Source of the DNA: Nageia nagi
Taxonomy: Eukaryota; Plantae; Pinophyta
Direction of reading: 5' to 3'
NCBI GenBank assembly: GCA_050084985.1
Contig: JBITNC010000001.1
Coordinates: 207,328,001 to 207,392,000, forward strand
DNA: 64,000 nucleotides
Shown here: piece by piece, positions 7,701 through 40,420 of the stretch
Numbering within the stretch: position 1 is the stretch's first letter
How the letters are laid out: every line of letters begins with the position of its first letter
Position numbers and translations under genes: made by a program
Notes under the pieces: generated by a model
Databases searched by the model: none
Seen by the model: the letters and a program-made list of their open reading frames with translations, nothing else
Told to the model about the DNA's origin: nothing

Positions 7701-7789
7701 CATAGATGAGCTATTCACATTGAAATAATTAAAATCACATAATCTTCATTAGAAATGGATAATGAAGTTCTAGAAATTACAATATAAGA

Positions 7790-15492: not shown

Positions 15493-15670
15493 TGTAAAAT
15501 CTCAAGAGGCCACAAAAAATACATTTTTTTAAAAGCCCTTCAAGAAAGATACCAAATCTATTGATTCATTTATATGACTATTTGAGTGACCACAAAAGAG
15601 TAATAAAATTTACATTGGTATTTAATGCAATTTATCTTATTTTCTAACAAGTTACATTTTTGGGTCAACA
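15493..15670 (+). repeat. Remnant (last ~180 bp) of the 3' LTR
   Basis: Aligns to 1134-1307 (aagcccttca...aatctattgatt.atttatatgactattt...tttttgg.tcaaca). The upstream ~720 bp of LTR and the PPT were not found. Confidence 0.75.
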
Positions 15671-15674
15671 TAAT

Positions 15675-15900
15675 CACTATAAGAAAATTAAGCTTTGAGG
15701 ATGGCTAATTTATGATAGTTATTTTAGGATGGTTGAAATCCTTATTAAAAAATTTCTTAAGATGGTAGTTTTATGCAATGATTTAAAATCACCCTTTAAA
15801 ATCCCTAAGAAGTTACTTTAAAATTTCCCTAAAAAACTATCTTCTAAAATCCCTTATAAGGCAATTTAATCTATCCTATAAAAAACCACCTTCAAAAAGT
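15675..15900. repeat. Left TIR and subterminal repeats of the CACTA element
   Basis: gaggatggc, taggatggtt, aaaatcaccct, aaaatttccct, aaaaccacctt read as decayed AGGGCGGTTTT/AAAACCGCCCT in both orientations. Confidence 0.7.
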
Positions 15901-16009
15901 AAACAAGAAGAAGAAAAATCATAGGTAGGAAGGATTTGTGCAAGAAAGAAGGGGAAATATAATTCCATAATGTAGGATAAAAAAAATAAATATAATTTCA
16001 TGGATTACA

Positions 16010-16302
16010 ATCATGTCATATGCATAAAATTAATTTTTTGAAGGCTTTAGAGACTTTTAAGAAGATCTAGGTATAAAGCTAAAATCTGCAACCTTTTCAC
16101 ATTCTTCTAATATGTTCCACCATGGTAACCCTAGAATAAGTTATGGACATACATTAATACAAGTATTATATGTAAAGCCATGATTATAATACAATTCTTA
16201 GATGTAAATCCAAACTCTATAACCTTTTATGACATTCTTCCAACATGTACCACCATGGGAGTTCTAGAAGAAGGTATGGACATCTATTAAAGAGTAGCTG
16301 AA
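16010..16302 (+). pseudogene. PLS-class PPR fragment (5' part, interrupted by the CRM-like element)
   Basis: ISWITIMSYA...; DVNPNSITFYDILPTCTTMGVLEEGMDIY*RVAE. Continues at 22041. Confidence 0.8.
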
Positions 16303-16891
16303 TGATGCACCTAAAAATGATCATAACTTTTGATTTGACCATAAAATCTTCTTAAAATTTTGAGAAGAGCTAGATATCAATTTTCATGATACAACTAACA
16401 CCTCCAATAGGAATGTTTTTTTATTGGCCTTAACCCATCATTTAGTGCCCCAAAATTAGCTTTTACTATCATTTTTCAAGATTTTCCAATAAGTAGACTT
16501 TAATATCTTTTGTTGTAGAATTTGTTTAGGAGAAATATCTTTTGTTGTAGAATTTTTTTAGGAGAATAAATTAGGGAGCACCTTAGTTCATGTTAATTGG
16601 GCTTGTATACCAATTTTGGCTATAATCTGAAGAAATTTTTATTTTTAGAAACTTTTTATCTTTAGAAACTTTCTATTTTTAGTAATATCTTGGTTTCTAA
16701 TTTATTCATTATTTTTTTGAATTAGAGTTTCCCTCTTTATATATTAACTATTGTAACATACATGAAAAAGTAGTATAGATTCAAAATAATAAAGAATTCT
16801 TGTTGTGAATTTTATTCTTCCATTGATTTGCTTCTTGTGTAAATAAATTTTTTTGTAGATTTATTTTGATCTCTTACAGGAATTCACACCA
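16303..16891 (+). repeat. 5' LTR (589 bp) of the CRM-like element
   Basis: Direct repeat of 21495-22035. Carries an extra ~32-bp tandem duplication (tatcttttgttgtagaattt.tttaggagaa x2) and an extra ~17-bp unit. Confidence 0.92.
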
Positions 16892-16973
16892 TTTAGTATC
16901 AGAGAGGGTGTGATATCACTAGGGGAGAAAAGATACCACCTAGGAGAGCAGCTAGAGCACCTAGAGGTGCCTA

Positions 16974-19900
16974 TGTCCAAATGAATAGATAAATCAAGGA
17001 TCTATAGGATGAAATAACATGACTAACTAGTGCAATCAAGCATATGGTAGAGAGAAATATAAATGCCCATGTAGATATAGGATTTGATGATGAAAATAAG
17101 GTCGATGAAGTTGGACATGAGGTCAAGATGGATGTAGAACTAGAAGATTCAATGGAAGATGGGAAACATTTTGAGAATTGATTGATACAGGCTCTAGAAG
17201 GGCATAAAGGAAATAGTGAAGGGATCAATTTGAGAATATTGAGTATGTTGGTGGGTTATAACAAGAGGAGTTGATTAATTGGGTAAATAGTCTAGAAAAA
17301 TATTTTGAATGGAATAACATTGCTAAAGAAAAGAAGTTAAATATTTCATGCATAAAGTTGAAGTGGCATGCATTAATCTGGTGGGATCACCTACAAAATA
17401 CATGATAGAGGAATGGAAAGGATAGAATTAGAGATTGGACCAAAATGAAGAAGTTAGAAGGAAAATTTGTACCTATGGACTATTCCTAGAACCTATTTTG
17501 CCAATTCCATAACCTATGATAAAAGGAACAAAGCATTGAGGACTACACCAACAACTTTTACAAGCTATCCATTCAAATAGAACCTAATGAAATAGAGGAC
17601 CAAAAGGTTGCAAGGTATGTAAATGTTCTAAGCTTTATTATTCAATATGAAATTAACATGCATTGTACTCCTATTGTGGAGGATCCATATCAAATAGCCC
17701 TAAAGGGTGAGGAAAAAGTTAGAAGGACTAATAGAGAAAGAAAGAAGGGATTCACACCTTCAAATTAGGGATGAGAAGGATCAAATTTCTCTAAGGGAGA
17801 ATCTTTAGTACCTACTAAATAAGAAGAGGTCAGCCAAAATTAGAGTAAGAGTTTACCCTAGAGGAAGGGGTAATGGAGGAGGTTATTCTAGTACTATCAC
17901 ATGGAAATCATTCATCTATTATAGATGTCATGAAGAAGGTCATAAGGCATATGATTGTCCCTAATATAATGTTAAAGAGAGGGGAAATGATAAGGTTATT
18001 CTAGTTGAGGAGGAGGTTGAAACATTTGTAGATATGGGTGAAAACTTAATGATAAGAAGGACTTAATTATTCCAAGGGAGGGAAACATGTGAGTTAAGGA
18101 TAGTGAAAATTATTGGTTGCATACCAATGTATTTTGTATAAGATACACAATAGGAGGAAAGGTATGTAACATAGTATTGGATGGTGGTAGTTGTAAAAAT
18201 ATGGTATCTATTATAATGGTTGATAAATTAAATCTCAAATGTAAGAAGCACCCATGTTCATATTGTGTTTCATGGATCAAGAAGGGAAATGAACTAATTA
18301 TTGATAAGAAGTGTCTAGTGAAATTTTCCATTAGAGACACTTATAAGGATGAGGTATGGTATGATGTAATTCCCATGGATGTTTGTCATATATTATTAGG
18401 GAGACCATGGCATTTTGATAGGAATACCTATCATGATGGAAGCAAGAACACTTAACATTCTACAAAATTGGTGTAAAGGTGGTTCTTTTACCCTTAAGGA
18501 AGAAGCCCAAGGATAAAGTTTTTTTACTACAAAAAGACTTATCACATAGGCATGAGAAATTAGTTGGTTTTATGCATTAACCACCCAAAATATAGAAATA
18601 TGGGAAATCCTTATACCACATGTAGTGATGAAGTTGCTAAAGGAATATGTAGATGTCATACCAGAGGAATTACCATAAGGATTACCATAAAAAAAGGATA
18701 TCCAACCCCATATTGATTTAATCCTAGGATCATCTCTTCCAAAATTAGGTAGCCTATCGATTGAGCCCAAAATAGAATGCTAAAATGAATAAAAATGTAA
18801 TAGAATTGATACAAAAGGGATTGGTTAGGGAGAGTATGAGTCCTTGTACAACTCCTACACTTTTGATTCCTAGGAAGGATGGCTCATGGTGGATGTATGT
18901 TAATAGTAGAGCTATCAACAAAATCATCATCAGATATGGATTTCTAATGCCAAGGATTGATGATATGATGGATGCATTGGTTGGGTCTAATTACTTCAAT
19001 AAGATTGATATGAGGAGTGGCTATTACCATATTCAAATTCAAGGGTGATAAATAGAAGATAGCCTTTAATACTTGAGATGGATTGTACAAATTAATGGTG
19101 ACTCCATTTGGGTTATTTAATGCACTAAGTACCTTCATGTGGTTGATGAATAGAGTGTTACGAGAATATAGTGGTAAGTTTTTAATGGTCTACTTTGATG
19201 ATATTTTAATTTTTAGTAAGACTACAAAAGAACACTTGTTTAACTTAAAGTTGGTTTTAGATTTGTTAAGGAAGGAGAAATTATATGCCAATATGAAGAA
19301 ATGTAGCTTCCTTCAAGAGAGCTTAGTATTTTTGGGGTTTGTAGTTTCAAAAGATGGTCTCAAAATGGATGAAGAAAAGGTGAATACAATTATCAAGTGG
19401 CCTATCCAAAGAAATGTAATAAAGGTATGAAATTTCCATGGATTGGAAACTTTTTATAGTAAATTTATTAGAAATTTTAGTAGCATTACTTCCACCATCA
19501 TAGAATGTATAAAGGGAAGGGAATTTCTATGGATAGAGGAAGCTACTAGGAGTTTTGAGCTTTTGAAAAAGAAGGTAACAACAACACCTATCTTAGTGTT
19601 AGTAGATTTTGACAAGCTATTTGAGGTTGATTGTGATGCCTCACATATTAGAATTGGAGCTATGTTGAGGCAAGAAGAAAGACCAGTAGCATTCTTTAGT
19701 GAGAAATTAAATGAGGTGAGGAAGAACCACTCCACTTATGATGTTGAATTATATTTTATTATATAGGAATTAAGATATTGGCATCATTACCTACTATCTA
19801 AGGAATTTGTGCTTTTTACTAAACATGAAGCATTATGGTTTATCAATTCCTAAAAGAAAGTGGATAAAAGGCATGCAATATAGGTATCCTTTTTTAAGAG

Positions 19901-21432
19901 TATGAATTTACTTTGAAGCATAAATTAAGAAAATATAATAAAGTGGTTTATGCATTGAGTAGGAGATCATTGTTGTTGACAACCATGGAAAATGTAGTAA
20001 TCAAATTTAAGGATATCAAAGATATGTATGAAGATGATGTTGATTTTGGACCTATTATGTAACAGTTTAACAATCCAACCATATGTCATATTGGTAGTAT
20101 TTTTTAGAATACATTATGTAGGATGGCTACTTGTTTAGGTGTACATAATTATGTATTTCAACTAGTTCTTTGTGAGAGAATATCTTGAGAGAGCTTCATA
20201 GTGGAGGTTTGGCATGACACTTTGGGGTAGACAAGACATTGGTGCTTGTTGCAAAAAAGTACTGCTAGCCAAAGCTAAGGAGAAATGTGACTAGATTTGT
20301 AAGTCAATGTAGAATATGCCAAATGACAAAAGACCATGCCCAAAATACCAGCTTGTATGTGCCTTTTCCTATTCCCACTAGAGCATAGAATGACTTAAGC
20401 ATGGAATTTATGTTGGGATTACCACATACTCAATGATAAGGAATCCATCTTTGTTGTTTTTAATAGGTTCACTAAGATGGCCCATTTCATTGCATGCCAA
20501 AAGATAGAGGATGCCACTAATGTTGTAGTCCTATTTTTTAATGAAATTATAAGGTTACATGGTGTTCCAAAATCCATTACCTTAGATTGAGATATCAAAT
20601 TCTTAAGCCACTTTTGGAGGACATTAAGGAAAAATTTGGATACATAATTACATTTCAACAATGCTTATCATCCATAAATTGATGGACATATAGAGGTTGT
20701 ATATTGTATCTTGGGAAATCTATTAAGGTGTATAGTTGGTATGAAACCAAAGTAATGAGATTGAGCCTTAGGAAAATCAGAATTGGCATATAATAGTTTA
20801 GTAAATAATTCAATAGGAAAATATCCTTTACAAAAATTTTATGGTCAAAATCTCAAGGGTGTCCTTGACTTAGTTGAGTTACCAATCATAGAAAATGTTA
20901 GTGATGATGTAGAGGGATTTATAGAGCACATACAACAACTATAGGAGGAGGTTCAAGCACAATTACAAAAGAATAATAATAAGTATGAAGTAGTCATAGA
21001 TGCACATAGGAGAGGAAAGATATTTTAATAAGGTAACATAGTGGTGGTCCACCTTCGTAAAGAGAGATTTCCCAAAGGCACCTAAAACAAGTTGAAGCTG
21101 AAGAAGATTGGTCCATGTTGAATTCTTGAGAAAAGAAACAACAATGCAAATAAGGTGTAATTACCAAAGGATTTAGATATTTCACCTATTTTTAATGTCT
21201 TTGATTTATATTGATTCCATGGTGATGTTGAAGATGTTGAGCTAGAAATTCCTATACAATGAAAATAACAAATTCCTAAGAAAAAAAGGAACACATTACA
21301 TAGATCCTTGATTAGAAAGTGTTTAGCACTCAGCATGGAAACTATACCAAGTACTTGGTCCAATGGGAAGGGTTATCAATATCAAATAATACATGGGTTT
21401 TAAAAGGGGAAGTAAAGAGGATTTCCAATGAT
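16974..21432 (+). pseudogene. gag-pol polyprotein (gag, zinc knuckle, PR, RT, RH, INT, chromodomain)
   Basis: HALIWWDHL; YYRCHEEGHKAYDCP; GKVCNIVLDGGSCKNMVS...DVIPMDVCHILLGRPWHFD; SPCTTPTLLIPRKDGSW; [10 protein letters not shown]; FEVDCDASHIRIGAML; [15 protein letters not shown]; ILD*KVFSTQHGNYTKYLVQWEGLSISNNTWV. Confidence 0.93.
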
Positions 21433-21494
21433 AAACTTCAATAATTTCATCAACAAAACTCATAGGAGCTAAGTTCATTTCAACTAAAGGAGAA

Positions 21495-22035
21495 TGATAC
21501 ACCTTCAAATGATCATAACTTTTGATGTGAACATTAGATTGTCTTGAAAGTTTTAGGAGAGCTAGATACAAATTCTCATGATTTGGCTAACACCTCCAAT
21601 AGGACAGTTTTTTTATTAGCCTAAATCCATCATTTAATGCCCCAAAATTAGCTTTTAATATCATTTTTCAAGATTTTTCAATAAGTAGACTTTAATATCT
21701 TTTATTGTAGAATTTGTTTAGAGAATAAATTGGGGAGCACCTTAGTCCATGTTAACTAGGCTTGTATGCCAAGTTTGGCTACAATCTGAAGAACTTTCTA
21801 TTTTTAGAAACTTTCTATTTTTAGTAATGTCTTGGTTTCTAGTCTATTTGTTATTTTTTTTGAATCAAAGTTTCATTATTTCTATATTAGCTATTGTAAT
21901 TGACCTAAAAAAGCTAGCATAAATTCATAATAATAAAGAATTTTTGTTGTGAATTTTATTCTTCCATTTATTTTCTTATTATGTAAATCAATATTTTTGG
22001 AGATTTATTTTGATCTCTTGTAGGAATATGCACCA
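21495..22035 (+). repeat. 3' LTR (541 bp) of the CRM-like element
   Basis: tgatacacc...tgcacca, preceded by the PPT. Confidence 0.92.
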
Positions 22036-22390
22036 TTTAAAATAGTTTTTCATTGAATTCTATGGCTATGAGTACTTTTCTACATATGTATAAAAATATG
22101 GAAGAATACACAAGGTTGATAATTATTAGATAAGATTCATGATGTAAACATATTTTATGGAATGCAATGATTGGTGGATATGTAATTGATGAATACACTA
22201 AGCATGCCCTATCTTTGATATGATGAAGCACTCAAAAGATAACCCTAATAGCATAACATTTGTATGTCTTCTACTTGCATTCAATTATGTAACTCTAGTG
22301 GATTAAGTTTGTAAATACCTTAATAGCATGCGTGACTGTTATTGCATTCTATCTAGAATGAATAATTATTATGCATTATTGGCCATTTCT
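22036..22390 (+). pseudogene. PLS-class PPR fragment (continuation of 16010-16302)
   Basis: NSFSLNSMAMSTFLHMY..., LWNAMIGGYVI..., NPNSITFVCLLLAFNYVTLVD*VCKYLNSMRDCYCI (with frameshifts). Confidence 0.85.
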
Positions 22391-22929
22391 ATTCAGTAAT
22401 CATTAACTTATGATTTTATTTATGTATTAAATTAGAAATAAATTATGTTATGTATATATTTCATATGAATAATAATTTCTTGTACAATTTATATAGGTGA
22501 ATAATGAAACATGTATTGCTAATGTTGTAGGTTATGTTCAAATGAGAAGGATTCATATTAGGGTTGAGAATGGACAATTACATGTTTAATGATATTAGAG
22601 TCATAGAGTTTATCAATTTATAGATTGAAACCATGCATGATTTACCTATATTAGTTACCCCATATTGGATTTCTCCCTCCTAAAAGCTTTTTCTCCTCCT
22701 TGGAAGGAATTCTCCCAATAAAAACTTCATATAGCCAAAACAAACTCCAATTCCAATATTGACCTTTATCATGTTGAGGATTTTATGTACAAATCCTTTT
22801 TCTTGACTCTAAATGAATTAGATAAATTAAATAAACATATAATGGTGGATGGATAAAAAAAAGTACACAACCTTAGAAGTATTATCAACTCATTGTGGCA
22901 TTCTCATAGTAAGGCTATGAGAATGGTAC

Positions 22930-24341
22930 CTTTGCAATCATTCTTCCAACATGTACCACCATAGGAGCTCTAGAATAAGATATGTATATCCATAATAGAT
23001 TAGTTTAAAATGATTTTTTTTATCAAATGTTATGGTTGTGAGTTCCTTGAGAGATATTTATATACAATGTGAAAGAATATATAATTATTGGGAATAATTT
23101 GACAAAATACCATATCTAAATGCAACCTCATGTACTATAATGATCATAAGATATGCACAAAATGAGTTTTTTGAAAAGGCCCTAGAGACTTATAAGAAAA
23201 TGAAATTGTCAAGAGTAAAGCTAAATTCTACAACCTGTCTTAGCATTCTTCTAACATCTGCCACTATGGGAGATTTAGAAGAATATTAGGATATCCATCA
23301 AAGAGTAGTTGAAAATGGTTTTTGATTGAATGTTGTGGTTGTGAGTTCCCTGATAAACATGTGTACAAAATATGTAAGAATATATAAGAATCAAGAACTA
23401 TTTGACAAGATTCATGATGCAAATATAATTTCATAAAATGCAATGATTAAAAGATATGTAATTCATGGTTACAACAAGGATGACTTTAAACACTTTGATT
23501 TGATGAAGTACTTGGGAATCATGATAACGTAACCTTTATATGTGTTCTACTTGCATGAAACCATGCAAGTATAGTGGATAAGGGATGTAACTACTTTAAT
23601 AATGAATGAATCTTATTACATTATTCTTGGGTTGTATCATTATACATTCATTATTGACCTTCTTGGCCATGTAGGCTATCTTGAGGAAGCTTTGAAATTT
23701 ATTGTCAAGATTCCCATAAAAATTAATTTAGGTGTGTGGATGTTTCTTCTTTGTGTTTTTAGATCACATAAAAATGTAGGAATAGGAAAATTTATAGAAA
23801 AATCATTTTTTCTAAAGCCCCAAATTGCTTCATCTTGTATTCTTATTTCAAATATTTATGCTAAATTGGGAATTTAGGATGATGTTGAATGAGTAAGGAC
23901 ATTAATAAAAAAATAGAGGAATCAATAAGACACATGGATGCAGTTGAATTGAGGTTGATAAAAGGGTACATGCTTTTCCTTTAGGAGATAAATCACACCC
24001 ACAAAAATAGGAGATATATTAAAAATTAGAGAAATTATTAAGATAGATGAAAGCAATATATTATATTCCAAACACAATACTTGTATTACATGATGTGGAG
24101 GTTGATGATAAAGAATTTCTTCTCTACCATCATAGTAGAAAGTTGGAAATTACATTCAAGTTATTGATGAATCCTTGTTAGAGTTATTATTAGAGTTGTA
24201 AAGAACCTTTGAGTATGTGATGACTACCATACTACAACTAATTTTATTTCTAAGATTATTACAAGTGATATTGTTATGAGGGATGTGAGTTGATTACATC
24301 ATTTCAAACATGGAAAATATTCTTATGGAGTTTATTAGTGA
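22930..24341 (+). pseudogene. PPR-E-DYW RNA-editing factor pseudogene (C-terminal ~470 codons)
   Basis: PLS repeats; HYTFIIDLLGHVGYLEEALKFIVKIP; ILISNIYAKLG; GCS*IEVDKRVHAFPLGDKSHPQ; HHSRKLEITF; IRVVKNL*VCDDYHTTTNFISKI; HHFKHGKYSYGVY** (decayed HHFKDGxCSCGDYW*). Confidence 0.92.
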
Positions 24342-24399
24342 TGTAGAGTAATGCAAGATATAATGAGTCTTGCATAATGACATGTTGTATGACCTTATA

Positions 24400-24985
24400 T
24401 AGAATGGAAATCATGTTTCATTTTATTTTATTTTTCAAAAAGTGTCGTTATTAAATATTTGAACAAATAGAAAATGCTATTGATTGTTGATATCATATTA
24501 TCAAGTGAATGTAACTATTTACATATATTTATGTGGCATTTGTAAAATATTTATGTTTAATATAATGGAGTCATGGTATTGAACTATTTTTCAATAATCT
24601 TGTACAATAATAATGTGAAGAGCTGGAGAAGGAGGTGAAAGAATCATAAGGAATGAAAGGAGACATATTTCAAGGAAACAAAAAATACATGATGGATAAT
24701 AAATATAAGATAAGGGATCACAAGTAACCCTATAATCTGGTAGGAAGAAAGTAGAGAAACTCTTAATTGTACTTTTCTCCTTCCTTATTATTTTATGTAG
24801 TTATTTTATTTATAATCATTATATTAACTTATGCCTATGTTTGCACTAGTCATCTAGATCCAAATTCTATATATTAATTTCTTTATAGGTTGATTCAGAT
24901 TTCACATTATCTATAGATAAAAATACCAAGAATATTTTGGGTAAAATTAGTTAACTAGTAAACATTATTGTATAGATTTTATTAT
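24400..24985 (+). repeat. Post-DYW module, copy 1 (exon-like block plus a ~240-bp unit)
   Basis: Colinear with 28704-29282 (e.g. gaagagct.gagaaggaggt; tttctttataggttgat.ca.attt). Confidence 0.75.
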
Positions 24986-25004
24986 TTAAACTCTTTAGAT
25001 ATAG

Positions 25005-25425
25005 AATTGAAAATTTTGGTCCATAATGCCTACAAAACTTAAATTTGATGTGTGGAAATGTCTAATTGATGCTTTTAGATCACATAAGAATGTAGAAATA
25101 GGGGAATTTATGGAAATAATTATTTTTTTATTTAAGCTTAAAAATTATCCATCTTGTGTTCTTATTTCAAATATCTATAGGGAAGTAGGAAACTAGGATG
25201 ATGTTTAAATAGTAAGGACATTAATCAAAGATAGAGGAACCAAGAAGATACCTAGATGTTGTTTGATTGAAGTTGACAAAAGGGTACATTATTTTCTTAT
25301 AAGAGACTAATCACACCCATAAACACATGAGATCTATTGAAAATTGGAGAAACTATGAAGTGATATGATGGAAACAACATTATTCTAAATAAAATACCAA
25401 CATTATGTGATATGGAGGCTATTGA
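25005..25425 (+). pseudogene. Second PPR E1/E2/E+ fragment
   Basis: MPTKLKFDVWKCLIDAFRSHKNVEIGEF...VLISNIYREVGN*DDV*IVRTLIKDRGTKKIPRCCLIEVDKRVHYFLIRD*SHP*THEIY; paralogous to 23700-24105. Confidence 0.88.
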
Positions 25426-27060
25426 TATATTTATAAACTATATTTATAATATTTTATATATTTTGGAACTCTATCCAATGAAAGGAAATATTTTATGTGA
25501 ATAAGAAGGATATACAATGCAAATAAGGGATTGTAATATGTTACTATAATCAAATTTATCAATTTAAATAAATGAATTAGTAGTATTATAACATAAGCAG
25601 GTATGGACAACTTAGATTACTCTTGATACTTAATATATGGTTTGTTTTGGAAGATGAAGAAGAATAATTATAGAAATATTATTTTCAAAATGGAAGATAA
25701 AATAATTTTATATCCATGCAAAATTTTCTTTTTCAAAATTTGATGATAATAATCCTTATAAGACCTTGCATAATATTGTAATCATGTCTTTACCAAAAAG
25801 AAGAAAATATGATAAATAAAGATCAATATATCTATGATTGAAATAAAATATAAGATTAGTGGGAATAATGGGTTTAGTAATTCATAATTTTTTGATGGAA
25901 TGCATGTGCATTGGTATTTTGATCTATCTTGACCTTTAGTCTTAGAAGGTGTACACAAGGATAGGCTTTTAGAAAGAAGAATTTAATATTTTATCATAAA
26001 ATTTTAAGAGTAAAGAACTAAATAGGCTATTAATATTATACTTCATCCATGAACTAAATATTGGTTTGACTTGGTTTCCCATAATATATTTAATTTGCAA
26101 CTAACTATATAAGAATGATTATGCACAATACAAAAGTTTTTTATTTAGATTAGAGGATGGATTTTTGAAAGGAATCCTAACATTTTACATAGTCAATATA
26201 TTTCAATTGAGCTTATGTAAGATGCATAAGCTAATAAGTGACCAATTATAAAATCCCAAATTCAAAATTGGTAAAAAACATATGCCACTACAACTTCAAA
26301 TTTAGAAATATTACCTAAAAATTGTGATTAATACTAACAATATAAGCTAGAGGATTCAAGATCCCCAAAATGGTTAAATTAGAAGATCATAAGATTAATT
26401 TTTTATAAAGTTAATGAATAACTTGAAAAATATATAAGAATGGGGAAAAAATGCAACCCATCATCCCAAAATTTTATCATCTTACTGGTACATGATTTCC
26501 CTTGCTATATCTCCAAATGTCCAACTCTACATTGGTTTCCCTCACTAAGGGCTTCCAAGACCAAAAATCTACATTACTTTAAGTTAACTAGCCTTGGTTT
26601 CTCTTGATATTCAATATCTTCTCAACACATCCAAAATTTAAAATTTTGTTCTAAACTCATCCATGATACTTTTGCACTATTATAAATAATACCCATACTT
26701 TGCTCAATCTCTTTGAGAATCCTTTGAGAAAGTCCTATATGAATCTCAATCATTTTAAAATAACACTAAACAACATCCATATATTATTCAATCACACTAA
26801 TATACCCCCAAACACCACCCTTACAATGTATTATGTTGGAATAAACCCAATAGGCTCAATATTATCCATTAGGAGAGGAAAAAATTACCCATATAGTCCA
26901 TTCCTTGATTGATAGATCTCCAATAGAAGAAACAAAATACTTTGATAAATAACATGCCTTTATCTAATTATCCCTCAAATCACATCATTAAAGAAAAATC
27001 TAGTCACCTCGGATACCCTATTATTAGTTTGTTCTCTATCAAGGGAAAGTCAACTTGTAT

Positions 27061-27725
27061 TGTAGTAAGCTAGGGTTTGGCTATGAACCAAAATATTAGA
27101 GAGAAAACTATATTAGAGAATAAAAGGAAGGCATAAAAACTCAATAATCTTCCCTAAATAATAATTCAAAATAACAATATGATAAACACAACCACCATAC
27201 CAAAATAGTAGTGCTTATATTGATGTTTACAAAGGGCCATCCTCATAACTACATGACCTCTAAGAGGAAACAAAATACCCCAATGATTCCCATCCATTCC
27301 CTAAGGCCTATAAACCAAAATTCATTCCTAAAAAGGTTGATTTGGGGATTAAAACTCCATGAGAAAAATATGGGAGAACCTCCCCATATGAACCATTTTT
27401 GGAGGATACTAGAATCCTCCATTGAGCAAACATGATAGTAGTTTGCAAGATCCCTAAGAATTATCATAACAACATCTAACCTCTCCTTCATCTCTTGAGC
27501 TCTCTAGGGTGGTCATGTATTTATATTCCCCATAATCATATCCATCACCTTCACCTTTGTCACCCACATCACTTTTAAACCCTATACCTCCCCTACTGCT
27601 TCCCTCCATCCTACCTAAGGACTATTTACTAATCCATGTAGATGCATAATACACAAGTTAATGATAATTATTATTGATTATTATAATATAGATCCTTAAT
27701 TATCTTCTAAATTAGGGGTGGAACA
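27061..27725 (-). mobile_element. Possible solo LTR (665 bp)
   Basis: tgtagtaagc...aggggtggaaca termini; weak TSD tgtat/tatct (3 of 5). Confidence 0.35.
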
Positions 27726-28570
27726 TATCTTTTTATAAAGGAATGAATATTTTTGTTTTCTTCATTTTTCAATTTTAATGATTGGTCCTATAAATTGGAC
27801 CTTAAATGTCAATTTTCTAAATTTTGATTAGAAGCCAACCAAAACTTTTAATCTAATAATTTGATTATGTAGAATTTAAATCTTAATTAGTATATTTAAT
27901 AATACTATAAATGCATATTTTTTATTTTTTTGAGTCTTATCAAAGAAAGGTTTTGGAAATATATCTCATTGGATAAACCATTTTATAGTATCCCTTATAT
28001 ATGATAATTGTAAAATATTTTCATGATAGGTAGACAATAAAATGAATTATTTGTTAAAAAAATTCTTCCCTTTTTGCAAATATAATTTAAAAATATATAT
28101 AGAAACCATAATTATCTTATATGTATTGGGATAATATCATATGTTATTCAAGATTTGCATCCTATCTCATCTTCATATTGGAATTGATAAGAAGGATAAT
28201 GTCATGACTTGAAGAATCTATATGAAATGAATGACATTAGTTAAACTTTAGAAAAACATAGCCAATTTTTTGACTTCACATATGTTGCTTTTCATATTTC
28301 AAATAGTGCTAATTTTGTGATCTTTTTTTAATATTATATCATAATTATAGGTGGGACAAGATATAAATGTAGGAGGTTTAATGAGACTTGATATGAATCA
28401 AGATTTTATAGAGATCATGCATCTAACTATTTGGGATTCAATTCATCTATCTCTTAATTTGGGTAAAGTGGACAATGTAAATGAGATAAGGAAAAATATT
28501 TTAGAACCAAGTTGTAGGTACATACTAAAAATTTGCTTCTCTACTAACATAGACAAAAAGGATAATAGCT

Positions 28571-28692
28571 TTTGGGTTATTAAATACTAGCCCTATAATT
28601 ATTACTAGAGTTATGAAGAACCTTTAAGTATGTGATTAATGCCATACTACAACCAAGTTTATCTCCAAAATTGTTATAAGGAACATTTTTCA
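28571..28692 (+). pseudogene. Isolated DYW deaminase-domain fragment
   Basis: FGLLNTSPIIITRVMKNL*VCD*CHTTTKFISKIVIRNI retains the CxxCH zinc-binding motif. Confidence 0.85.
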
Positions 28693-28703
28693 TGGTTTTA
28701 GGT

Positions 28704-29530
28704 AGAAAGAAAACTATGTTTCATTTCATTTTTTCAAAATAATTGTTATTAAATATTTGTACAAATAGATAATATTATTGATTGCTAACATTATATTATC
28801 AATTGAACATAATTGCCTAAGTATATTGATGTGGTCTTTGTGAAGGCCTTATTTTTAATTCTACAATCATGGTATTGAAATATTTTTTTAGGAATACTAC
28901 ATATAATTATTGAATGAAGAGCTAGAGAAGGAGGTGTAAGAATTGAAAATATAGAACAAGAAATACTTGAAGGAAATATGAAATACTTGATGAACAATAA
29001 ATGTTAGATAAGGGCCTACAAGTATCCCAATACTTTGGTATGAAGAGAGTAGAGTAACTCTTAATTATTCTTTTCTATTGCCTTTATTATTTTATGTATT
29101 AATTTTGTGTATAATCATTATATTATCTTGTGCCTATTTTTTCATCAATCATCTTGGCCCAAATTCTATGTAGTAATTTCTTTATAGGTTGATGCAAATT
29201 TTGCATTGTCTATGGATAAAAATACCAAAAAACTTTTTGGGTTGAATTAGATCATGTTTTGTATGTTTAACTATTAAAAATTAGAGTAGAATAACTCTTA
29301 ATTTTACTTATCTCTTACCTTTATCATTTTATATAATCATTTTATTTAGAATCATTCTATTATATTATGCCTATTTTTACATTGACCATTTACTCCCAAA
29401 TTCTATCTAGTAATTCATTTATAGGTTGATGTAGATTTTGCACTATTACTAGATCAAAATAATAAGATTTTTTAGGTGTAATTAGAATAATTTTTGTATA
29501 TTTAGCTATTAAAAATTATTATTTATATTT
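28704..29530 (+). repeat. Post-DYW module, copy 2, with the ~240-bp unit tandemly doubled
   Basis: Units at ~29048-29282 and ~29283-29530, each agagta...ctcttaatt...caaattctat.tagtaatt...ttataggttgatg.a.attttgca. Confidence 0.75.
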
Positions 29531-29949
29531 TATTATTGAATAATAACAAAAATGAAGTAGTCAAATGTAACACAACCAACTTTAACCTCAAAAATTTAGA
29601 CCATTTTTTTTTTTTTGAAAATAATCTTTATGGGTAAACTATTACTTGTAAGTGTTTTATCCCACTTGGATCATATGATAATTCTCTTCATACTTTATCT
29701 AGATATCACCTCCCTAAGGTAAGTACTAGGGCACATTCACCATGTAATCTTATCTCTCTTGCAAGCAGATCCCCATGATGATCGTGCTCTAGTTTTATTT
29801 GATTAAGGGTTTTAATACAATGGCATAAGATCAATTTTTAAGAAAATTTTTCAATATAACCTAGTGAGTAGCTTTGACATTAGGTTGAATACTCAATATA
29901 AGTTTTTTCCTTTCTTAATTATCTCCTAAAATGTGTATTTTTGAATCCT

Positions 29950-30240
29950 ATGTTTCAAGAGATGTTTATTGGTACTACTTCCCATGGTGGGATATTAGAC
30001 CATACCATATTGTTATTTAATTTTGAGACATACCAATTCCATCAATTCATCAATATTGGAATACCTACATAATTATGTAAATCATTATGAGAGAGATAGA
30101 TCTAGCATATCCTCTTTCTAAATATTATTAATTACTAACTTTGGTTTATATGAAAGTCATGAAATTCTACTAAACTTTTAGAATCATTCGTTATGTTGAA
30201 GCAAGAACTACTTTTTGTGTTGACCATTCTTGTCTTCCTA
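29950..30240 (+). pseudogene. Possible Ty1/copia INT/RT relic
   Basis: YVSRDV and DLAY...ESH...RIIRYVEARTTF resemble copia motifs (PDLAYAV...AAKRILRYVKGT); heavily decayed. Confidence 0.3.
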
Positions 30241-31059
30241 AGGGTGAGTTTAAAAATACTTTCCAAGAATAAAACCAAATAGACTTATTGATTATTATTG
30301 ATCTATAATCTCAAATATATAATGAATATGTACATGTTATGTAAGATCATGGATTACCACTATGACACTTGATTACATTGCAATTACAAACATCATAAAT
30401 ATAATAATTTAAATACATCATTTGTACAAATTTTCATCTAATAAGCTCCATGGTAAGGAGGGGCCTTCATAATTTCTCATACTTCCTCCCTTTTTTAACC
30501 TTTCCAAGGTTCAAAGAATGAGTGGTCATGGGTATTAAGAATGGATCATGAACATATGAGGATAAGGACAACTCATCTCTTTTTGGACCCCAAAGCATTA
30601 TGTACACCAATTAATTAATAAAATTTTACAAACTCATTTAACACATCATCTATTTAGAATTTATCCTATTTGTGGTCTCATGAGGTTTTATACCTTTGAT
30701 GATGTTATCTCTCTTCCTCGACCATAGAGTGGTGGATCTCAATAAACATTGTCATAAACCTTATAGCATAAATATTCCAAGTAAAATCTATTATTTATAG
30801 ATTTCCATAGTTCTAATTAATTTTAAAATTTCATATTCAAATATATGATTCACTATCTCTAAATTTTTATTATTTATATATAGGGTAGAGATATATATTT
30901 ATTACAAGATAAATCTCATCAAGTTCAAATTTAAGCTTCATTAAACCTCTTGAAAAAGTATTTATAATTTCCATAAAAATTTATTAGTATTTTCATTTAA
31001 CTAACACTAATTCAAATCAAATACTTTGTAGGATAGATATCTATATCAATCATTTATAT

Positions 31060-32390
31060 TGGAAAGGATTTTTAGTTAATTAAAATGGTTTTGTTTGACA
31101 TAATTATTCAATCAAACATAGTTTCATGGATCCATAGTTGGCCAAATGCAATGAATTTATATTATTGTATTATATTATTTTGTACCTCTAAAATTACTCA
31201 TAATATACATTATAAAATGAAAATAAAAAAGTTTATAAATATGTTGAAATTGCTTGTTAGTATCATGAGTAGAGCATTCCTTTAGAAAGTATTATGATGG
31301 AAAGTTTAAAAGAAATTATGACCCAAAATGATACCAAAACTAAAACTAAACTCTTCATACTTTTTCATCAATCTCTTAGCAAGCATCATGATGGGACTCT
31401 AGAAAGTAGAGGGCATGAACATTTATGATGAAGTATTGTAAGGATGAGAGCTCAAAATAATATAAATAAAATCCCACTAAACTTTTCCATAACAGGGGCA
31501 TCAGGAAGATATAAAATGGATTTGTATGAAGTTTTAAGAGTTTGTTAACATCATTCCTCATAGAAGCATTGTATTATGGATGATAAGGATTATAGTGTAT
31601 TCCCAAAATCAATTTTCTAAAAGAATATTTGAAATACCTTATGAGATATTTGAAAATATGATCCCTTGCTAAGTTTATAAGTTATGTATCAAAATATCTC
31701 GTATAATTTGAGTTAAAATAGACTTATTTGAATGTAGCTCATTTTACTTATGAGTATTTTAGGAGATCAAGGTGTTGCTAGTAAATTTGAAATGCATGGA
31801 TGTGATTGCGCTAGTAGACATGTATGCAAAATGTAGATGCATAGAGAAGGCATGTAAGTGTTTGGTAATATGTCTAATGCAAATGTAGTTTTATATAATG
31901 AAAAAGTATCAAGATATTCATAAGATGGATAAAATGAAAGTGCCCATGAAATGCAGTCTCTACAACCTTTGTTAGCATTCTTTCAACATGTACCACCATG
32001 GGAGTTCCAAAACAAGGTATCGGAATACATAAAGAGTAGTTATAAATGGTTTATCCTTGAATATTGAGAGCATGCATGCCTCGATAGTCATGTATGAAAA
32101 AGGTGAAAGAATACTCAAGGTACAAGAATTGTTTAATAATATACATGATGTAGACAAAATTTCATGGACTACTATATTTGTTGGATATGCACAAAGGGGG
32201 TTTTTCTAAGAAGGTATTTAAACCTTGAGGAGTAAAAACAAATGTTGTACTTTTTTCCATCATTCTATTAGCATGTGCCACCATCAAAGATTTGGAAGAA
32301 TATTTGGATATCCATCATAGAGTATTATTGAGGTCATGGATTCTTTATAGCCATGTAAGAAAAATGCAATATAATACACAAGGCTTGAGG
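31060..32390 (+). pseudogene. Cluster of shuffled PLS-PPR motif fragments
   Basis: LFDIIIQSNIVSW (~31090); IIPHRSIVLWMIRIIVYSQN (~31550); ALVDMYAKCRCIEKAC (31809); STTFVSILSTCTTMG; QELFNNIHDVDKISWTTIFVGYAQRG; IILLACATIKDLEEYLDIHHRV. Confidence 0.8.
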
Positions 32391-33809
32391 ATTATTCTTA
32401 TGGATCACAACTCAATGAGTACCTTTCATAACTAAGATATCATCTCAAAAGGGTACCATTGTGACTTCCATCAAGATAAAAAATAATTAAATTAAGGATT
32501 TTCCTTATAACCTAGGGCCAAGATATCTATTTTTTTATCATGAGTAAGAGTCAATAAGAACAAAGACTATATAAAATCAAGATTTAAACAATAAAAATAA
32601 TAATTATTCCACTAAATACTTATATCAATAAGAATACATTCTTAAATATTCTAAGAACATATAGCCAAATTCATACAAACATATCATATGCTCCCTTTCC
32701 ATAATATTTAAATATTATTCTTCAAGGACTAGAGCTCAAAAAGGTGCCAAGGGATGGAGTGAGAGAAATATGTGAGAGTGGTGAAAAAAAAGGCAAGGAA
32801 AATCCATGCCCACATGCAACATCAAATAAAGTTTCCAAATTTATGACAAGGGTCCCATTTCATTTCTAGAAGAGGATATAAGTAGGAGAAATAAGATTTG
32901 AATTAGTAAAATTTCTTGCCAAAAAATTGATCCATGGTACAGTGTATATATAGGGAATTCAAGGCCTATGAGTGAGGAAAAAGTAGTGGATAAAATCTTT
33001 CTCCTTAAAACTATAGTTCTTTTGAGATTTTATTTGGCTTGACTAGTCACTTCCCACTATTGTTAAATTAGTAAGTCACATAAGGATTGGCCATGACCTT
33101 TCATACCATCCAATCAAATAAAGATAAAATTATGATTTTATCTCTTTTCATTTATAATTAGATAAGAGTACAAAATTCACATGTAGAACATCAAATAACT
33201 CCAAAGAGATCTCTTCTCTAGTAATATTGTCATAAATATTTAAATGAACCAAACTATAATAAATGCAAATAAACTCACAACATAAAGCATTTTTTCCAAA
33301 ACTTCACATGTAAGGATTTGAAATAACTACAAAGGGGTCCTTTCAATCAAATAGACTAATGTACATCATACAAATATGAAACTTAAATAAATCTTATCTA
33401 TCACATTTGAAATATTAAATAGTAAATTATTTGCCTTTTGAAGATAATAACTTGCATTATTTCATTTTTAATAACATTTGAAATATAATAACTAGTACCA
33501 AACATATTCACTTATATTTAATTAAATCCCTTTATAGTACATAGAACTTAATTTAAATATGCCTAACATACATGTTGCACATATGCCAATCCAAGACTGT
33601 AGTAACAATTTTTACAATTTTTTATTTAAGTGAAATAAATCATCTCATTATGCATCCAATTACAATGAATCTATTGTTATTGTTATTCTTTATCTTTCAC
33701 AATAGTAGCATGGAGGTTAGATACTAGTTACAACCATAAATAAGGTGCTTTAGTTGTCCTAGTTCTACATTTCTACCTTTTCTAGTTTACTTTGAGTAGG
33801 ATACTATTT

Positions 33810-34135
33810 ATCTTGGTTTTTTTTGTTATTATTTTGGGTGGAACTAGACCATATTTTGTGTGTTTAACTATTAAAAATTAGAGTAAAGAAAATCTTAATT
33901 GTAATTTGATCTTGCCTTTATCATTTTGTGAGGTCATTTTTGTTTGAAATCATTCTATTATCTTGTGCTTATTTTTGCATCGATCATCTAGGCATAAATT
34001 CTATGTAGTAATTTCTTTATAGGCTAATGTAGATTTTGCACAATCCATGAATACAAACACCAAGAATTTTTTTGGTGGAATTATACCATGTTTTACATAT
34101 TTAACTATTAAATATTATTGTCAAGATTTGAACAT
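33810..34135 (+). repeat. Another copy of the ~240-bp unit near the CACTA right end
   Basis: aactattaaaaattagagta...cttaattgta...aaattctatgtagtaatttctttataggctaatgtagattttgcac...accaagaattttt. Confidence 0.75.
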
Positions 34136-34919
34136 TGGAATTCTTTAATGATAGATTTAATTTTTCTTAATCCAAATTCATCTAGGTATTTTTAAGATAC
34201 CTTTATATTTCATCATTTTTTATATATATTTTATTTTATTCAACTTACTAGGAATAGCATAAATGTTTGAGAGAAATATATAAGATACAAAATTTTAGGT
34301 ATCTAACTCTAAAAACATGTTTTACTACAAATTTTGATAACTCTAGATTGTTTTTAATTATATAGGCAATAAGCAAAAAACTACACAAAAAAACATTATG
34401 TTTTATTAGGATATTATCTATAAAGTATTTTTCTTAATACAAATTTATCCAAGTAGTTTTTAGATCCCTCTCTTTCATTATTTTTTGTATGTTTTAAATT
34501 TTATTCCACCTACCAAATATAGCATAAATTTTTGAGAGAAGAATAAATTATTTATCTATTATGAATCTTGTCAAACAAACTATTTTCCTTCTTAATGCTA
34601 CCATATTTTGAATACATGTCTATCAAGGCTATTATCAAAATTGCATGTGAGAGAAACCCACATCTAATTATTTTTCCATCATCCATTTTAAAGTTGTAAA
34701 GTTGCTTATACAACAAGAATACTTTTAAAGGTTATTGAATCCATAATGTTATAATCTTACCAAGCATATTTTTAATATTATTATTTGTTCTTATCATGAT
34801 GTTTTATTACACAATGAAAAGAGAAAATAATAGGATTAAAAATATGTTTGGTAAGATATAATAACTACTAACCTATGGAATGTTAAAACTAAATCATCCA
34901 CTTAAAACTAATGCAATTT

Positions 34920-35186
34920 CAAGGGTCTTTTAGGAAGGCTTTAAAATACCCTAAAAAAGATGTTTTAGGGTGATTTTAAACAATCATAAAAAAGATCTTT
35001 TGGGGTAGTTTTAAAATTCCCTAAAATATCCTATTTAAGTGGTTATACATTTGTGAGGATGGTTTATTATAACACTTTTAAATTTTTATCTTTTCTTCTA
35101 AATTTTTTATGACACATGAAAAACTATCATTAAAGGCCTATCAGGGTGGTTTAGAACCACACTTGAATCCCTAATTTGGTGTAGTA
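34920..35186. repeat. Right subterminal repeats and TIR of the CACTA element
   Basis: aaaataccct, agggtgatttt, ggggtagtttt, aaaattccct, gaggatggttt, agggtggttt.gaaccac, then ...tgtagta followed by aat. Confidence 0.7.
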
Positions 35187-35997
35187 AATGTAGATAGAAT
35201 ATGAACACAAATATAAGCATAATAAGATTCAAATATTCTCTACATATTTATGCTCAGATGATTCAAATATTCTTGATAAAATCAATTATGCTACAATGAT
35301 TCAAATATGCTCTAGAATACCACTACAACATATCATAATTTATTTGTAAATAAGTTTAATTATATTTTAGAAATTTAATAATCTCACAATATTTTCCATT
35401 ATTTTAGAATAACCTTCACCCAAATGTTCATGATATATCTTTTCATTAAGGTTGTCATCAACACTATGTTTTTAGCTAGTATAGTCCTTAGTCAAGAAGC
35501 ATGCTATTCTATTAAATTTATACTTTGTTATCCTTTTCAATACCTACATGGAAAATTAAAATCCTAAATAAATTCATTATATATAATATAATACAATATA
35601 AATTCATTATTTTGAATTTGAAATAATAGTTGTACCATATTTGATGACTCTAGGTTAGCCTTCTATTTACTCACTTAAAAGCTTGAAACAAGAAATGATT
35701 ATGCCAATGAAGCTTAAGATGTTAAGGAGATGAAATTTACCTTATAAAAGGTAAGAAATTACCTCTTAATCTAAGAAATATCCAATGGTAATAAGAATTA
35801 TTATTTCCCACAATGGAACATTATAGATGTATTATTGACCTTAGCTAGTACAAATATGATGGAAATTGAATGTAATATAAACAAATAACCAATAAATAAA
35901 TAATATATTAATATTGTATATTTTAAATTTAGATTAAATCAAAATATACCTTATATATGGCAGAAAAGAATACTTATTTCACTTATGCCTTTGCTTT

Positions 35998-36182
35998 CTT
36001 GTATGTAAAATGTGGAAGATTATACAAGGCCCAAGAATTATTTGACAAGATGCAAGATGTAAATATAGTTTTATGGAATGCAATGATTTGAGGCTATGAA
36101 ATTCATGGCTATATTAAATATTCCCTTAAACTCTTTAATTTTATTAAGTACTTGGGAACTAACCCTAACAACATAATCTTTA
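35998..36182 (+). pseudogene. PPR fragment (5' part, interrupted by an LTR element)
   Basis: LYVKCGRLYKAQELFDKMQDVNIVLWNAMI*GYEIHGYIKYSLKLFNFIKYLGTNPNNIIF. Confidence 0.88.
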
Positions 36183-37211
36183 TGCAATCCTCAAAAGTAT
36201 ATATACATCATGGTTATATGTAATTAAATATACAAGACACTATATCAAATCACAATAGATATAAATGAAAAGTATGCACCTAATATGAAGTGTGTGTCAA
36301 ATAATCAAAATAATATAGCAATTAATCTTTAGATTATTTGGATCAAACTCATGGTTATCTCACAACTAATGTTCATATGCATGAACTAATGACTTAATCA
36401 TTCAAGCCTCGAACCCTTGATCTAGAAGATGCACACCATTGATGACCTAAGAGAAGCACATTGTTACTAACATAGGATAAGCACACTACTAACTATGTGC
36501 AATGTGTTGAATTATGATGTGTGCCAAAGATATAAAGTTTATAACTAAGAGTATAACAAATTATCAAGATAGGTGGCATCCTAAGACACCATTATAGTTG
36601 ATAACCACCTATCAAAATTCTTCATCAATAGCAAAAGAGTTATGATATTTGAAGATCAACATATCCATCCATTTATATAACTTGCAAAATATATAAAAAC
36701 AAGTGAAGGTTGACCTTGTACAATATTTTAATCAAGTTTATTCTTAAGGATCGATCCCAAATTTTTTTTAAAAAAAATAAGATAAATCAGTTTCAAATTT
36801 TGGATGAAAATATAGCCTTTAAAATAAAAGGTATAAGTTGATACATACCATATACATACTATATGTTGATGTTTTGGTGATTAGATTCATAAAATTAATA
36901 TTTTCTTGTAATTTTAGGGCAAATGGACATCCTTTTAGGGCTCCAAACATTAGCCAATTTGAAAATCTTAAAATCCTAATTTTTGCTTATAAGTGATGAT
37001 TAGCCACTAAGAATACATTGATTTTAATCACTGTTATATTCAATATACTTTAAAATAAAACCCATGATATATGATATAACATTTAATATAACACATGGCA
37101 TTGCATTATAAACATCCTTTTATCTTTATATATGTAATATTGTATTAAATCATTTAAGAAGTCTAAATATGATTTATTAAATAAATAATAAATTATTTTT
37201 AGGCATCTATA
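36183..37211 (-). repeat. 3' LTR of the gag-only element
   Basis: Matches 40965-41721 apart from an extra ~296-bp segment; abuts the PPT. Confidence 0.8.
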
Positions 37212-39199: not shown

Positions 39200-40420
39200 A
39201 ATACCCATTAAGAAGTGTAATCTTAAATTGATATTTTTCAAAAGACCAATTTTTTTGCAATTTATATTATTTTAACTAAATCTTAACTACATTTTACTAA
39301 ACTAAAATTTTTATTATGCTTTTCTAACTAGTTGGATTTACAAAGAAAGAACCATCATTTCCATTACTATTTTCATGCTATTGGTAGCCTTCATATAGTA
39401 TGGCATGCTTTCAATGGTGTGATTCCTCATCATATTTATCCTAAAATTTTATAATTCCATCCATAATCTCTATATATGAAGCATGCTGGTGAATCTCATA
39501 TTTTCCTTATGCAATAAGGTCCAAAATTATAACTTTCAAAGCATTACAAGAATTTGTAGCATGACCCTCTCTTTGATGATAAGTACAATAAGTGTCATCC
39601 ATTGGAATATGATCATATTCTATACTTTTTTCTAATAGTTGCAATAAACCTCTTTTCATTAGATCTCTCATTATAATCCTTGTTGATGTCCACTAAGTAT
39701 CTCAAATTTGGGAGCCTCTTGATCAAGTGATGAGGAATAATTATGGGCATCTTGTGTTTTCAATATTTCTTGATATGTTACTTTTTGCCAACATTATTTT
39801 GGTTTTTATTCTTGAGATGGATTTTGAATTTGAGGTTTATGTTGTAGTTTAGGTTTTGGTTTCAATTGAGATTTAGGTTGAGTTGTTAATTAAGATGTTT
39901 GATTATGTTGTTGCTTTTGTATGTTTTCTTTCTCAAACTTTTGCATACAATATTGTCTTGCATATGGATCTTTTAAAAATGTATCTAATTATTTTCTTAA
40001 AAATGCATGCTATATTTATTTTAGGTTAAGATCATTATAAATGCCAAACATCAAATAAGAATTGGCTAACATATGCTCTTTAATTTTTTTAAGTTGATCT
40101 TGAGGTGCAAAATTTTCAAATGCGATATCATACATTTCATAGTTATCCTTATCTTCAAGGTTTAAATATGCAACATAATCAAATTCAGCCATATAATGAT
40201 CATCATCACTAACATTATCATGTACTTGATTTTCTATTATTATTATATCATTTTGCACATCATCATTAGTAGTCAAGCATGAATTTGGTAAACTCATTTC
40301 ATCAAAAGATTTACTATTATTATTTTGCATAATATGCATACCCTTAGATATTTCTTATGTAGGAGAATATGCAAATAAATAATTTATCACATTCAAATGT
40401 TCAAGTAAACCACTTTTATA
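39200..40420 (-). pseudogene. gag remnant with a Tat/Ogre-type zinc knuckle
   Basis: Minus strand YCTYHQREGHATNSCNALKVIILDLIA*GKYEI (~39590-39495); the acidic ORF 40016-40339 lies upstream. Confidence 0.65.

What the first reader, a model, noticed from the sequence alone, without database searches (positions are those of the whole stretch)
15675..35186. Pack-CACTA candidate carrying PPR-E-DYW (RNA-editing factor) cargo
Seen: CACTA-type ends (cactataagaaaattaag / reverse complement tactacaccaaattag), a matching 3-bp AAT TSD, and decayed AGGGCGGTTTT-type subterminal repeats at both ends. No transposase was recognised between them. PPR sequence begins ~110 bp inside the left subterminal block, and at least five same-strand PLS/E/DYW pieces follow, including a ~1.4-kb PLS-E-DYW tail. 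Established: CACTA elements make 3-bp TSDs and capture gene fragments; DYW-PPRs are C-to-U organellar editing factors, and their expansion is usually attributed to retroposition. Inference: a CACTA family may have mobilised and amplified editing-type PPR genes in this lineage. I am not aware of this route having been described.
Basis: partly seen in the sequence, partly recalled or inferred. Interest (0 to 1): 0.8.

Follow-up and report, generated by a model that had tools for sequence, protein, structure and literature searches.

The report
Dead conifer Pack-CACTA carrying PPR-DYW fragments
A very old, broken CACTA-type DNA transposon in a conifer-like genome encloses five decayed pieces of RNA-editing-factor (PPR-DYW) genes, which it likely carried as captured cargo, but the pieces are dead, similar pieces lie outside it, and CACTA capture of a PPR gene fragment has been reported before in grapevine.

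Summary
The ends are real. CACTA-type termini at 15675 and 35186 face each other, share a subterminal motif (each is the other's best match among 630 segments), and are flanked by AAT/AAT (chance about 3-5%). Pfam finds no transposase between them.

The interior holds five decayed PPR copies from a conifer PLS-E-DYW clade (Cryptomeria, Taxus, Araucaria relatives). One copy is on the minus strand. All are pseudogene fragments, and the best-preserved one has lost the DYW catalytic residues. Equally diverged fragments of the same clade lie outside the ends (36.0-42.1 kb; weakly at 0.2 kb).

Best reading: an ancient non-autonomous Pack-CACTA-like element that likely moved once with PPR-cluster DNA, then duplicated internally and decayed. 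That a CACTA family amplified editing genes could not be tested: no genome, reads or second copy were available. CACTA transduplication of a PPR fragment is already published for grapevine. Interest is modest.

The parts
15672..15674 (+). left 3-bp target site duplication (AAT)
15675..15692 (+). left CACTA terminal inverted repeat
15693..15898 (.). left subterminal repeat block: decayed AAAAC-C-rich motif in both orientations
15963..16302 (+). PPR copy A, 5' part (P/L motifs), pseudogene
16303..22035 (+). nested Ty3/Gypsy chromovirus-type LTR retrotransposon (LTRs 16303-16891 and 21495-22035; gag, RT, RNase H, integrase zinc finger, SH3, chromo; 5-bp flanks CTGAA/TTTAA); splits PPR copy A; broken
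   Evidence: LTR K2P 0.146
22036..22447 (+). PPR copy A, 3' part (S-P2-L2-S2), ends before E
22847..24335 (+). PPR copy B: 5'-truncated PLS-E1-E2-E+-DYW pseudogene; HxE glutamate and second Cys of CxxC lost
24340..25005 (+). 3' flank of copy B, shared with copy C; holds one ~237-bp repeat unit (from 24748)
25006..25427 (+). PPR copy C, E1-E2-E+ and start of DYW
25428..28512 (.). unassigned 3.1-kb insertion splitting the DYW domain of copy C
   Evidence: no Pfam hit
28513..29518 (+). PPR copy C, rest of DYW (to ~28690), shared 3' flank and two tandem ~237-bp units
31544..32397 (+). PPR copy D, PLS motifs only
33825..34140 (+). further ~237-bp unit (one full and one partial copy)
34148..34674 (-). 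PPR copy E, inverted and non-collinear (S, E2, then S2-E1-E2)
34926..35169 (.). right subterminal repeat block, same motif as on the left
35170..35186 (-). right terminal inverted repeat; terminal C read as T (TACTA)
35187..35189 (+). right 3-bp target site duplication (AAT)
35981..42143 (+). PPR copy F, OUTSIDE the element: 35981-36220 and 41706-42143, split by a ~5.5-kb insertion; same clade

Best explanation
This is a long-dead, non-autonomous CACTA transposon whose two ends enclose five decayed PPR-DYW gene fragments, and it likely inserted here as one unit carrying that PPR DNA as captured cargo (a Pack-CACTA-like element). Shown: paired ends, shared subterminal motif, 3-bp TSD, no detectable transposase, pseudogenic cargo and nested insertions. 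Inferred from known CACTA biology: a transposase supplied in trans would have bound the subterminal repeats and cut at the TIRs. The PPR DNA would have been picked up from a PPR gene or pseudogene cluster, either by two neighbouring CACTA ends closing around it (the hybrid-end model of PMC6379663) or by copying during gap repair. A short-range hop would explain why fragments of the same clade lie just outside. Copies B and C, with their shared 3' flank and 237-bp unit, come from a DNA-level duplication. A Ty3 element and a 3.1-kb insertion later split copies A and C, and methylation-driven C-to-T decay likely destroyed every reading frame. It encodes no editing factor today.
For: Ends are reciprocal best matches in inverted orientation, and no other end of this family scores above the shuffled range in the window. 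The TSD matches, with a chance of 0.03-0.05. PPR sequence begins ~70-100 bp after the left block and ends ~250 bp before the right block; 19 of the 22 clade-HMM segments in the window lie inside the 19.5 kb, while the reversed-window control scored at most 1.1 bits. No transposase Pfam hit was found, although the same scan detected RT, RNase H, integrase, PPR, E and DYW remnants. The cargo is a mosaic of truncated pieces in both orientations. B and C share ~570 bp of non-coding 3' flank at 77% identity. CpG o/e is 0.04 and CHG 0.12 inside the element, with 1 CpG in the 1417 bp of copy B. 5' and 3' subterminal sequences are known to differ in Pack-CACTA (PMC6379663, passage).
Against: No second copy and no empty site was found, so movement with cargo rests on one 3-bp match. 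The TIRs differ at 5 of 16 positions, including two transversions and a gap, which also fits two related families. Outside copy F is as close to B (K2P 0.29) as A is to B (0.32), and transversion quartets are unresolved (5:5:3 for A, B, D, F), so the inside copies are not a distinct set. Pfam missed PPR copies A and D that the clade HMM found, so a strongly decayed transposase remnant in the unassigned interior could also be missed. Decay by CpG/CHG loss is window-wide, not specific to the element.
Confidence: 0.6

Rival explanations
1. One CACTA element inserted here, but the PPR pieces entered it afterwards (repair of an aborted excision using the neighbouring cluster as template, or ectopic insertion), so it never moved with this cargo.
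For: Same ends and TSD. Equally related PPR fragments lie 0.8 kb outside. Copy E is inverted and scrambled, as template switching would give.
Against: It needs several independent entries and loss of all recognisable CACTA internal sequence. Copy F shares no flank with the inside copies (score 36), so it is not their direct template.
Confidence: 0.2
2. The two ends are remnants of two separate insertions of related CACTA elements into an old tandem PPR pseudogene cluster; the AAT match is chance and nothing was mobilised.
For: TIRs only 11 of 16 identical. PPR fragments occur on both sides of the right end. Tandem duplication is a major duplication mode in some conifers (PMC13477047 section 10). 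A second right-type TIR-like 15-mer lies at 38268, though within chance expectation.
Against: It requires a 3-5% TSD coincidence, and loss of both inner ends: no further subterminal block scores above the shuffled range. No PPR segment was detected between 260 and 15960.
Confidence: 0.15
3. The ends are not CACTA termini but chance low-complexity matches in AT-rich DNA.
For: Right end reads TACTA; the window is 73% AT; TIR-like 15-mers with one mismatch occur 5 times against 2.15 expected.
Against: Independent TRF arrays, cross-validated motif, reciprocal best alignment (0 of 2000 shuffles) and TSD all coincide at the same two places.
Confidence: 0.03

Closest known systems
Pack-CACTA elements of Arabidopsis (Catoni et al., PMC6379663; Gisby and Catoni, PMC8903248)
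   Same: CACTA-starting TIRs, 3-bp TSD, no transposase, interior of chromosomal or gene-derived DNA, 5' and 3' subterminal sequences that differ (passages).
   Different: Those are small multi-copy families, some still mobile. This is one very old copy of 19.5 kb (10.7 kb without the two large insertions) with decayed TIRs; no family was shown.
Cactavine-5 CACTA elements of grapevine (Benjak et al. 2008, PMC2528002)
   Same: CACTA element carrying part of a PPR gene's coding sequence and 3' UTR, in two copies (passage).
   Different: There the fragment lies downstream of a transposase ORF, in opposite orientation, and no DYW domain is mentioned (the term has 0 occurrences). Here there is no transposase and five fragments including E-DYW.
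Conifer PLS-E-DYW PPR clade of Cryptomeria japonica, Taxus chinensis and Araucaria cunninghamii (P0042, P0010, P0172 and others)
   Same: All four window copies tested fall in this clade; B and C each group with the single Araucaria protein (FastTree support 0.81 and 0.88 singly, 0.96 with all four).
   Different: The database proteins have intact HxE/CxxC motifs and long PLS arrays; the window copies are truncated, frameshifted and full of stops.
TE-mediated gene-fragment capture in gymnosperm genomes (PMC13477047)
   Same: Reports ~480,000 TEs per conifer genome holding captured exon fragments, in all major superfamilies (section 12).
   Different: PPR, DYW and RNA editing are not mentioned in its main text or in the one supplementary file that could be searched.

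Membership tests
CACTA (En/Spm) superfamily | TIRs beginning CACTA at both ends | tested here: inconclusive
   Left end intact; right end reads TACTA (one C-to-T change, the dominant decay in this DNA); 11 of 16 positions identical.
CACTA (En/Spm) superfamily | 3-bp target site duplication | tested here: met
   AAT/AAT directly outside both TIRs; chance 0.03-0.05.
CACTA (En/Spm) superfamily | Subterminal arrays of 10-20-bp motifs in direct and inverted orientation at both ends (PMC8978399, passage) | tested here: met
CACTA (En/Spm) superfamily | Transposase (Transposase_21 and associated domains) in the element or in a related autonomous partner | tested here: inconclusive
   None inside, as expected of a non-autonomous copy; the partner cannot be sought without the genome.
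Pack-CACTA (Pack-TYPE) | No transposase; interior holds host-gene fragments | tested here: met
Pack-CACTA (Pack-TYPE) | Several copies with the same termini at different sites (singletons are removed as possible false positives in packFinder, PMC8903248) | not testable with these tools
   No genome and no runs listed; scans of viral and metagenome contigs gave no conifer-clade locus.
Pack-CACTA (Pack-TYPE) | Identifiable donor gene elsewhere in the genome | not testable with these tools
   Only cross-species protein relatives were available.
PLS-class E/DYW PPR editing factors | P-L-S array followed by P2-L2-S2-E1-E2-E+-DYW | tested here: met
   Copy B is collinear with the clade HMM to position 419 of 420; Pfam PPR, E_motif, Eplus_motif and DYW_deaminase.
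PLS-class E/DYW PPR editing factors | Intact reading frame with HxE and CxxC zinc/catalytic motifs (motif definition recalled; present in the reference rows) | tested here: not met
   B: HHSRK in place of HHSEK, and CDDY in place of CxDC; 19 stops over its three printed frame segments. C: CD*C.

The most novel reading that the evidence does not exclude
A CACTA family in this conifer lineage repeatedly carried whole or near-whole PLS-E-DYW genes, and is the engine behind the expansion and PLS-motif shuffling of the large conifer DYW clade seen in Cryptomeria, Taxus and Araucaria, with some younger copies still intact and expressed. This would be a DNA-transposon route to new editing factors beside the retroposition route in print.
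Probability: 0.1. Interest if true: 0.7.

Novelty: new member of a known kind. Interest (0 to 1): 0.3.

Why it matters
As it stands it is a fossil: one more gene-capturing DNA transposon in a genome type where capture is reported to be massive, with a published CACTA-PPR precedent. It matters as a lead. PPR expansions are currently attributed mainly to retroposition (PMC13386178, passages), and conifers hold a large, dispersed PLS-E-DYW clade. If these ends prove to flank many members of that clade, cut-and-paste transposons would be a second route for copying and reshuffling RNA-editing factors. The two end sequences and the 237-bp unit make that a one-day test on any related assembly.

Tried and rejected
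Whole genome: none held. Sequencing runs for 15400-16400: none was listed, so no reads were laid.

Left-TIR pattern in viral contigs: 4 loci, none followed by the subterminal block. A Taxus PPR against viral contigs: no relative. Clade alignment against metagenome contigs: 80 loci kept of 581 confirmed in a scan that covered 9 of 64 parts; the best identity to the clade tail was 60%, against 69-80% within the clade, and none carried these ends. They are non-conifer-clade loci and do not test the family claim.

Three Ginkgo PPR proteins listed with the CACTA 'Transpos_assoc' domain looked like a transposase-PPR fusion. Rejected: the matches are below the curated cut-off and lie inside PPR motifs.

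Empty-site test with the paralogous repeat at 1119-1326: it matches the left flank up to the TSD, but the right flank matches for about 10 bp at most, so the test is inconclusive. The idea that the 237-bp unit is an inverted E motif was rejected (alignment score 55-56 in either orientation, against 289-375 between units). The motif-rich spot at 13831 is C-rich sequence with no TIR seen in 13500-14300.

A homologue search with the S2-E segment alone found nothing. Unassigned interior blocks gave no tblastx hit to the fetched loci or the rest of the window. The IQ-TREE run timed out, so FastTree was used. Five look-ups of earlier findings gave nothing on this genome or this arrangement.
Full report
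SETTING. The window is 27% GC with CpG o/e 0.044 and CHG about 0.13 throughout, the pattern expected of long-methylated plant repeat DNA (inference). No whole genome is held and no sequencing run was listed, so all copy-number questions stayed open. The closest proteins to the PPR pieces come from Cryptomeria japonica and Taxus chinensis. On a FastTree of 43 references plus the four window copies, all four lie in the Cryptomeria-Taxus-Araucaria clade. B and C, placed singly, each pair with the one Araucaria protein (support 0.81 and 0.88); A and F placed singly fall elsewhere in the clade with weak support. Long decayed branches can attract each other, so the joint grouping (0.96) is weaker than it looks. 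The source is a conifer of that broad lineage; I go no further.

THE ENDS. The left TIR starts at 15675 and the right ends at 35186, with AAT directly outside each. The right end reads TACTA, one C-to-T change. Eleven of the first 16 aligned TIR positions agree. The TIR pattern alone is not significant (5 matches against 2.15 expected), so the case rests on the subterminal blocks. TRF, unsupervised, reports arrays at 15785-15898 and 34926-35026 among 42 rows for the window. A motif scan designed from both ends gave 7 and 8 hits per 250 bp against shuffled maxima of 4-6 in 12 shuffles, but that is circular. A matrix from six left-end copies only ranked the right end top or equal top among non-self windows (7 vs mean 0.66; 12 vs 1.95), with a C-rich spot at 13831 close behind (6 and 9). 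Local alignment makes each end the other's best match among 630 segments (76 vs 35+/-6, inverted better than direct). None of 2000 shuffles reached 76, and 40 shuffled queries gave window-wide maxima of 51-68. The TSD match has a chance of 0.028-0.048. Together these favour one insertion.

THE INTERIOR. Pfam on six frames of 15600-36700 with stops read as X found a Ty3 retrotransposon (gag, RT, RNase H, integrase zinc finger, SH3, chromo), PPR, E, E+ and DYW, and no transposase (selected frames of the unassigned blocks again at E<=1). An HMM from 39 clade proteins gave 22 segments: 19 inside and 3 outside, with a reversed-window control at most 1.1 bits. They resolve into copies. A (15963-16302 + 22036-22447) is split by the 5733-bp Ty3 element, whose LTRs differ by K2P 0.146. 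B (22847-24335) is a 5'-truncated PLS-E-E+-DYW. C (25006-25427 + 28513-28690) is split by an unassigned 3085-bp insertion. D (31544-32397) is PLS only. E (34148-34674) is on the minus strand with motifs out of order. B and C share their non-coding 3' flank (77% over 563 sites), and a ~237-bp unit recurs five times, which points to DNA-level duplication rather than separate retrocopies. All copies are dead: B has 19 stops over its three printed frame segments (some in overlapping ends, one probably the true terminator), reads HHSRK for HHSEK and CDDY for CxDC. With a conifer rate of about 2e-9 per site per year (recalled, not from a call) the LTR pair would be some 30 million years old; methylation decay inflates this, and the Ty3 insertion could predate capture.

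AGAINST A SIMPLE CARGO STORY. Copy F (35981-36220 + 41706-42143) starts 0.8 kb outside the right TIR, and a weak fragment lies at 180-255. F is as close to B (K2P 0.29) and A (0.335) as A is to B (0.32); B-C is 0.27-0.31. Transversion quartets are unresolved (5:5:3 for A, B, D, F), although F is somewhat more often the odd one out against B and C (14 vs 10 and 10; 16 vs 8 and 6). So PPR debris of this clade is not confined to the element. Either the element hopped near its donor cluster, or this clade is an abundant repeat in the genome, or the ends sit in a cluster by chance. The empty-site test with a paralogue of the left flank was inconclusive.

FAMILY LEVEL. Not testable. The 80 PPR-DYW loci kept from the metagenome scan reach at most 60% identity to the clade tail and carry no such ends. 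None of the 240 proteins listed shows a CACTA transposase family in its precomputed domains, apart from three Ginkgo Transpos_assoc entries that proved spurious. The clade is large: 35 listed Cryptomeria proteins are 69-80% identical to the Taxus tail and sit on contigs of nine different lengths (read). It is therefore dispersed, but by what route is not shown.

MECHANISM. Most likely (0.6): a non-autonomous CACTA element moved as a unit with PPR-cluster DNA, captured by hybrid ends or gap repair, and then decayed. Only the anatomy is shown; capture, movement with cargo and the order of events are inferred. Rivals: PPR entered after insertion (0.2); two separate ends in a cluster (0.15); chance (0.03).

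LITERATURE (what I saw). PMC2528002, passages: two Cactavine-5 CACTA copies carry part of a PPR gene. PMC6379663, passages: Pack-CACTA structure and the hybrid-end model. PMC8903248, passages: Pack-TYPE annotation. PMC8978399, passages: CACTA end definition and captured fragments. PMC13477047: abstract, sections 10 and 12, term search, and supplementary file 2; file 1 could not be searched and may bear on PPR capture. [quoted passage not shown] PMC10473749 and PMC2996948, passages: nothing on PPR capture. Ten full-text searches listed no paper reporting DYW-type PPR cargo in CACTA elements or in conifers; the library lacks most subscription journals.

VERDICT. A real, ancient Pack-CACTA-like fossil with dead PPR-DYW fragments; a new member of a known kind. 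Interest 0.3. The bold reading, CACTA as the amplifier of conifer DYW genes, is not excluded (about 0.1) and would merit 0.7.

Noticed in passing
window 13870-15040 (minus strand): Decayed Plant mobile domain (PMD, PF10536, E 1.3e-9) just left of the element; coordinates estimated from the matched residues.
   Followed up: no
window 1119-1326 and 15477-15671: Two copies of a repeat (76% identity); the first ends in a short inverted repeat followed by CTAG-T, resembling a Helitron 3' end (resemblance recalled). The CACTA element sits at the end of the second copy.
   Followed up: partly
window 36216-41729: Insertion splitting PPR copy F, bounded by ~530-bp direct repeats (36216-36747 / 41021-41554, 79%) plus a younger 195-bp duplication (37025-37219 / 41536-41729, 92%); no Pfam hit in 36700-41100.
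   Followed up: partly
window 38268-38282: A second 15-mer like the right TIR (plus strand), without a subterminal block; within chance expectation.
   Followed up: partly
window 52796-63731: Pair of ~3.2-kb direct repeats (K2P 0.188) around Ty3-like pol sequence: an LTR element with long LTRs.
   Followed up: no
window 4500-8600: Decayed Ty3-like gag-pol reading frames on the plus strand, judged by eye from ORF translations.
   Followed up: no
window 24748, 29046, 29283, 33825-33880, 34062: A ~237-bp non-coding unit found only inside the element, five times (K2P 0.19-0.29 among the four full copies); a useful probe for other family members.
   Followed up: partly
window 43503-44792: Degenerate tandem array of roughly 97-bp period with AT-rich similarity to 49200-49550.
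   Followed up: no
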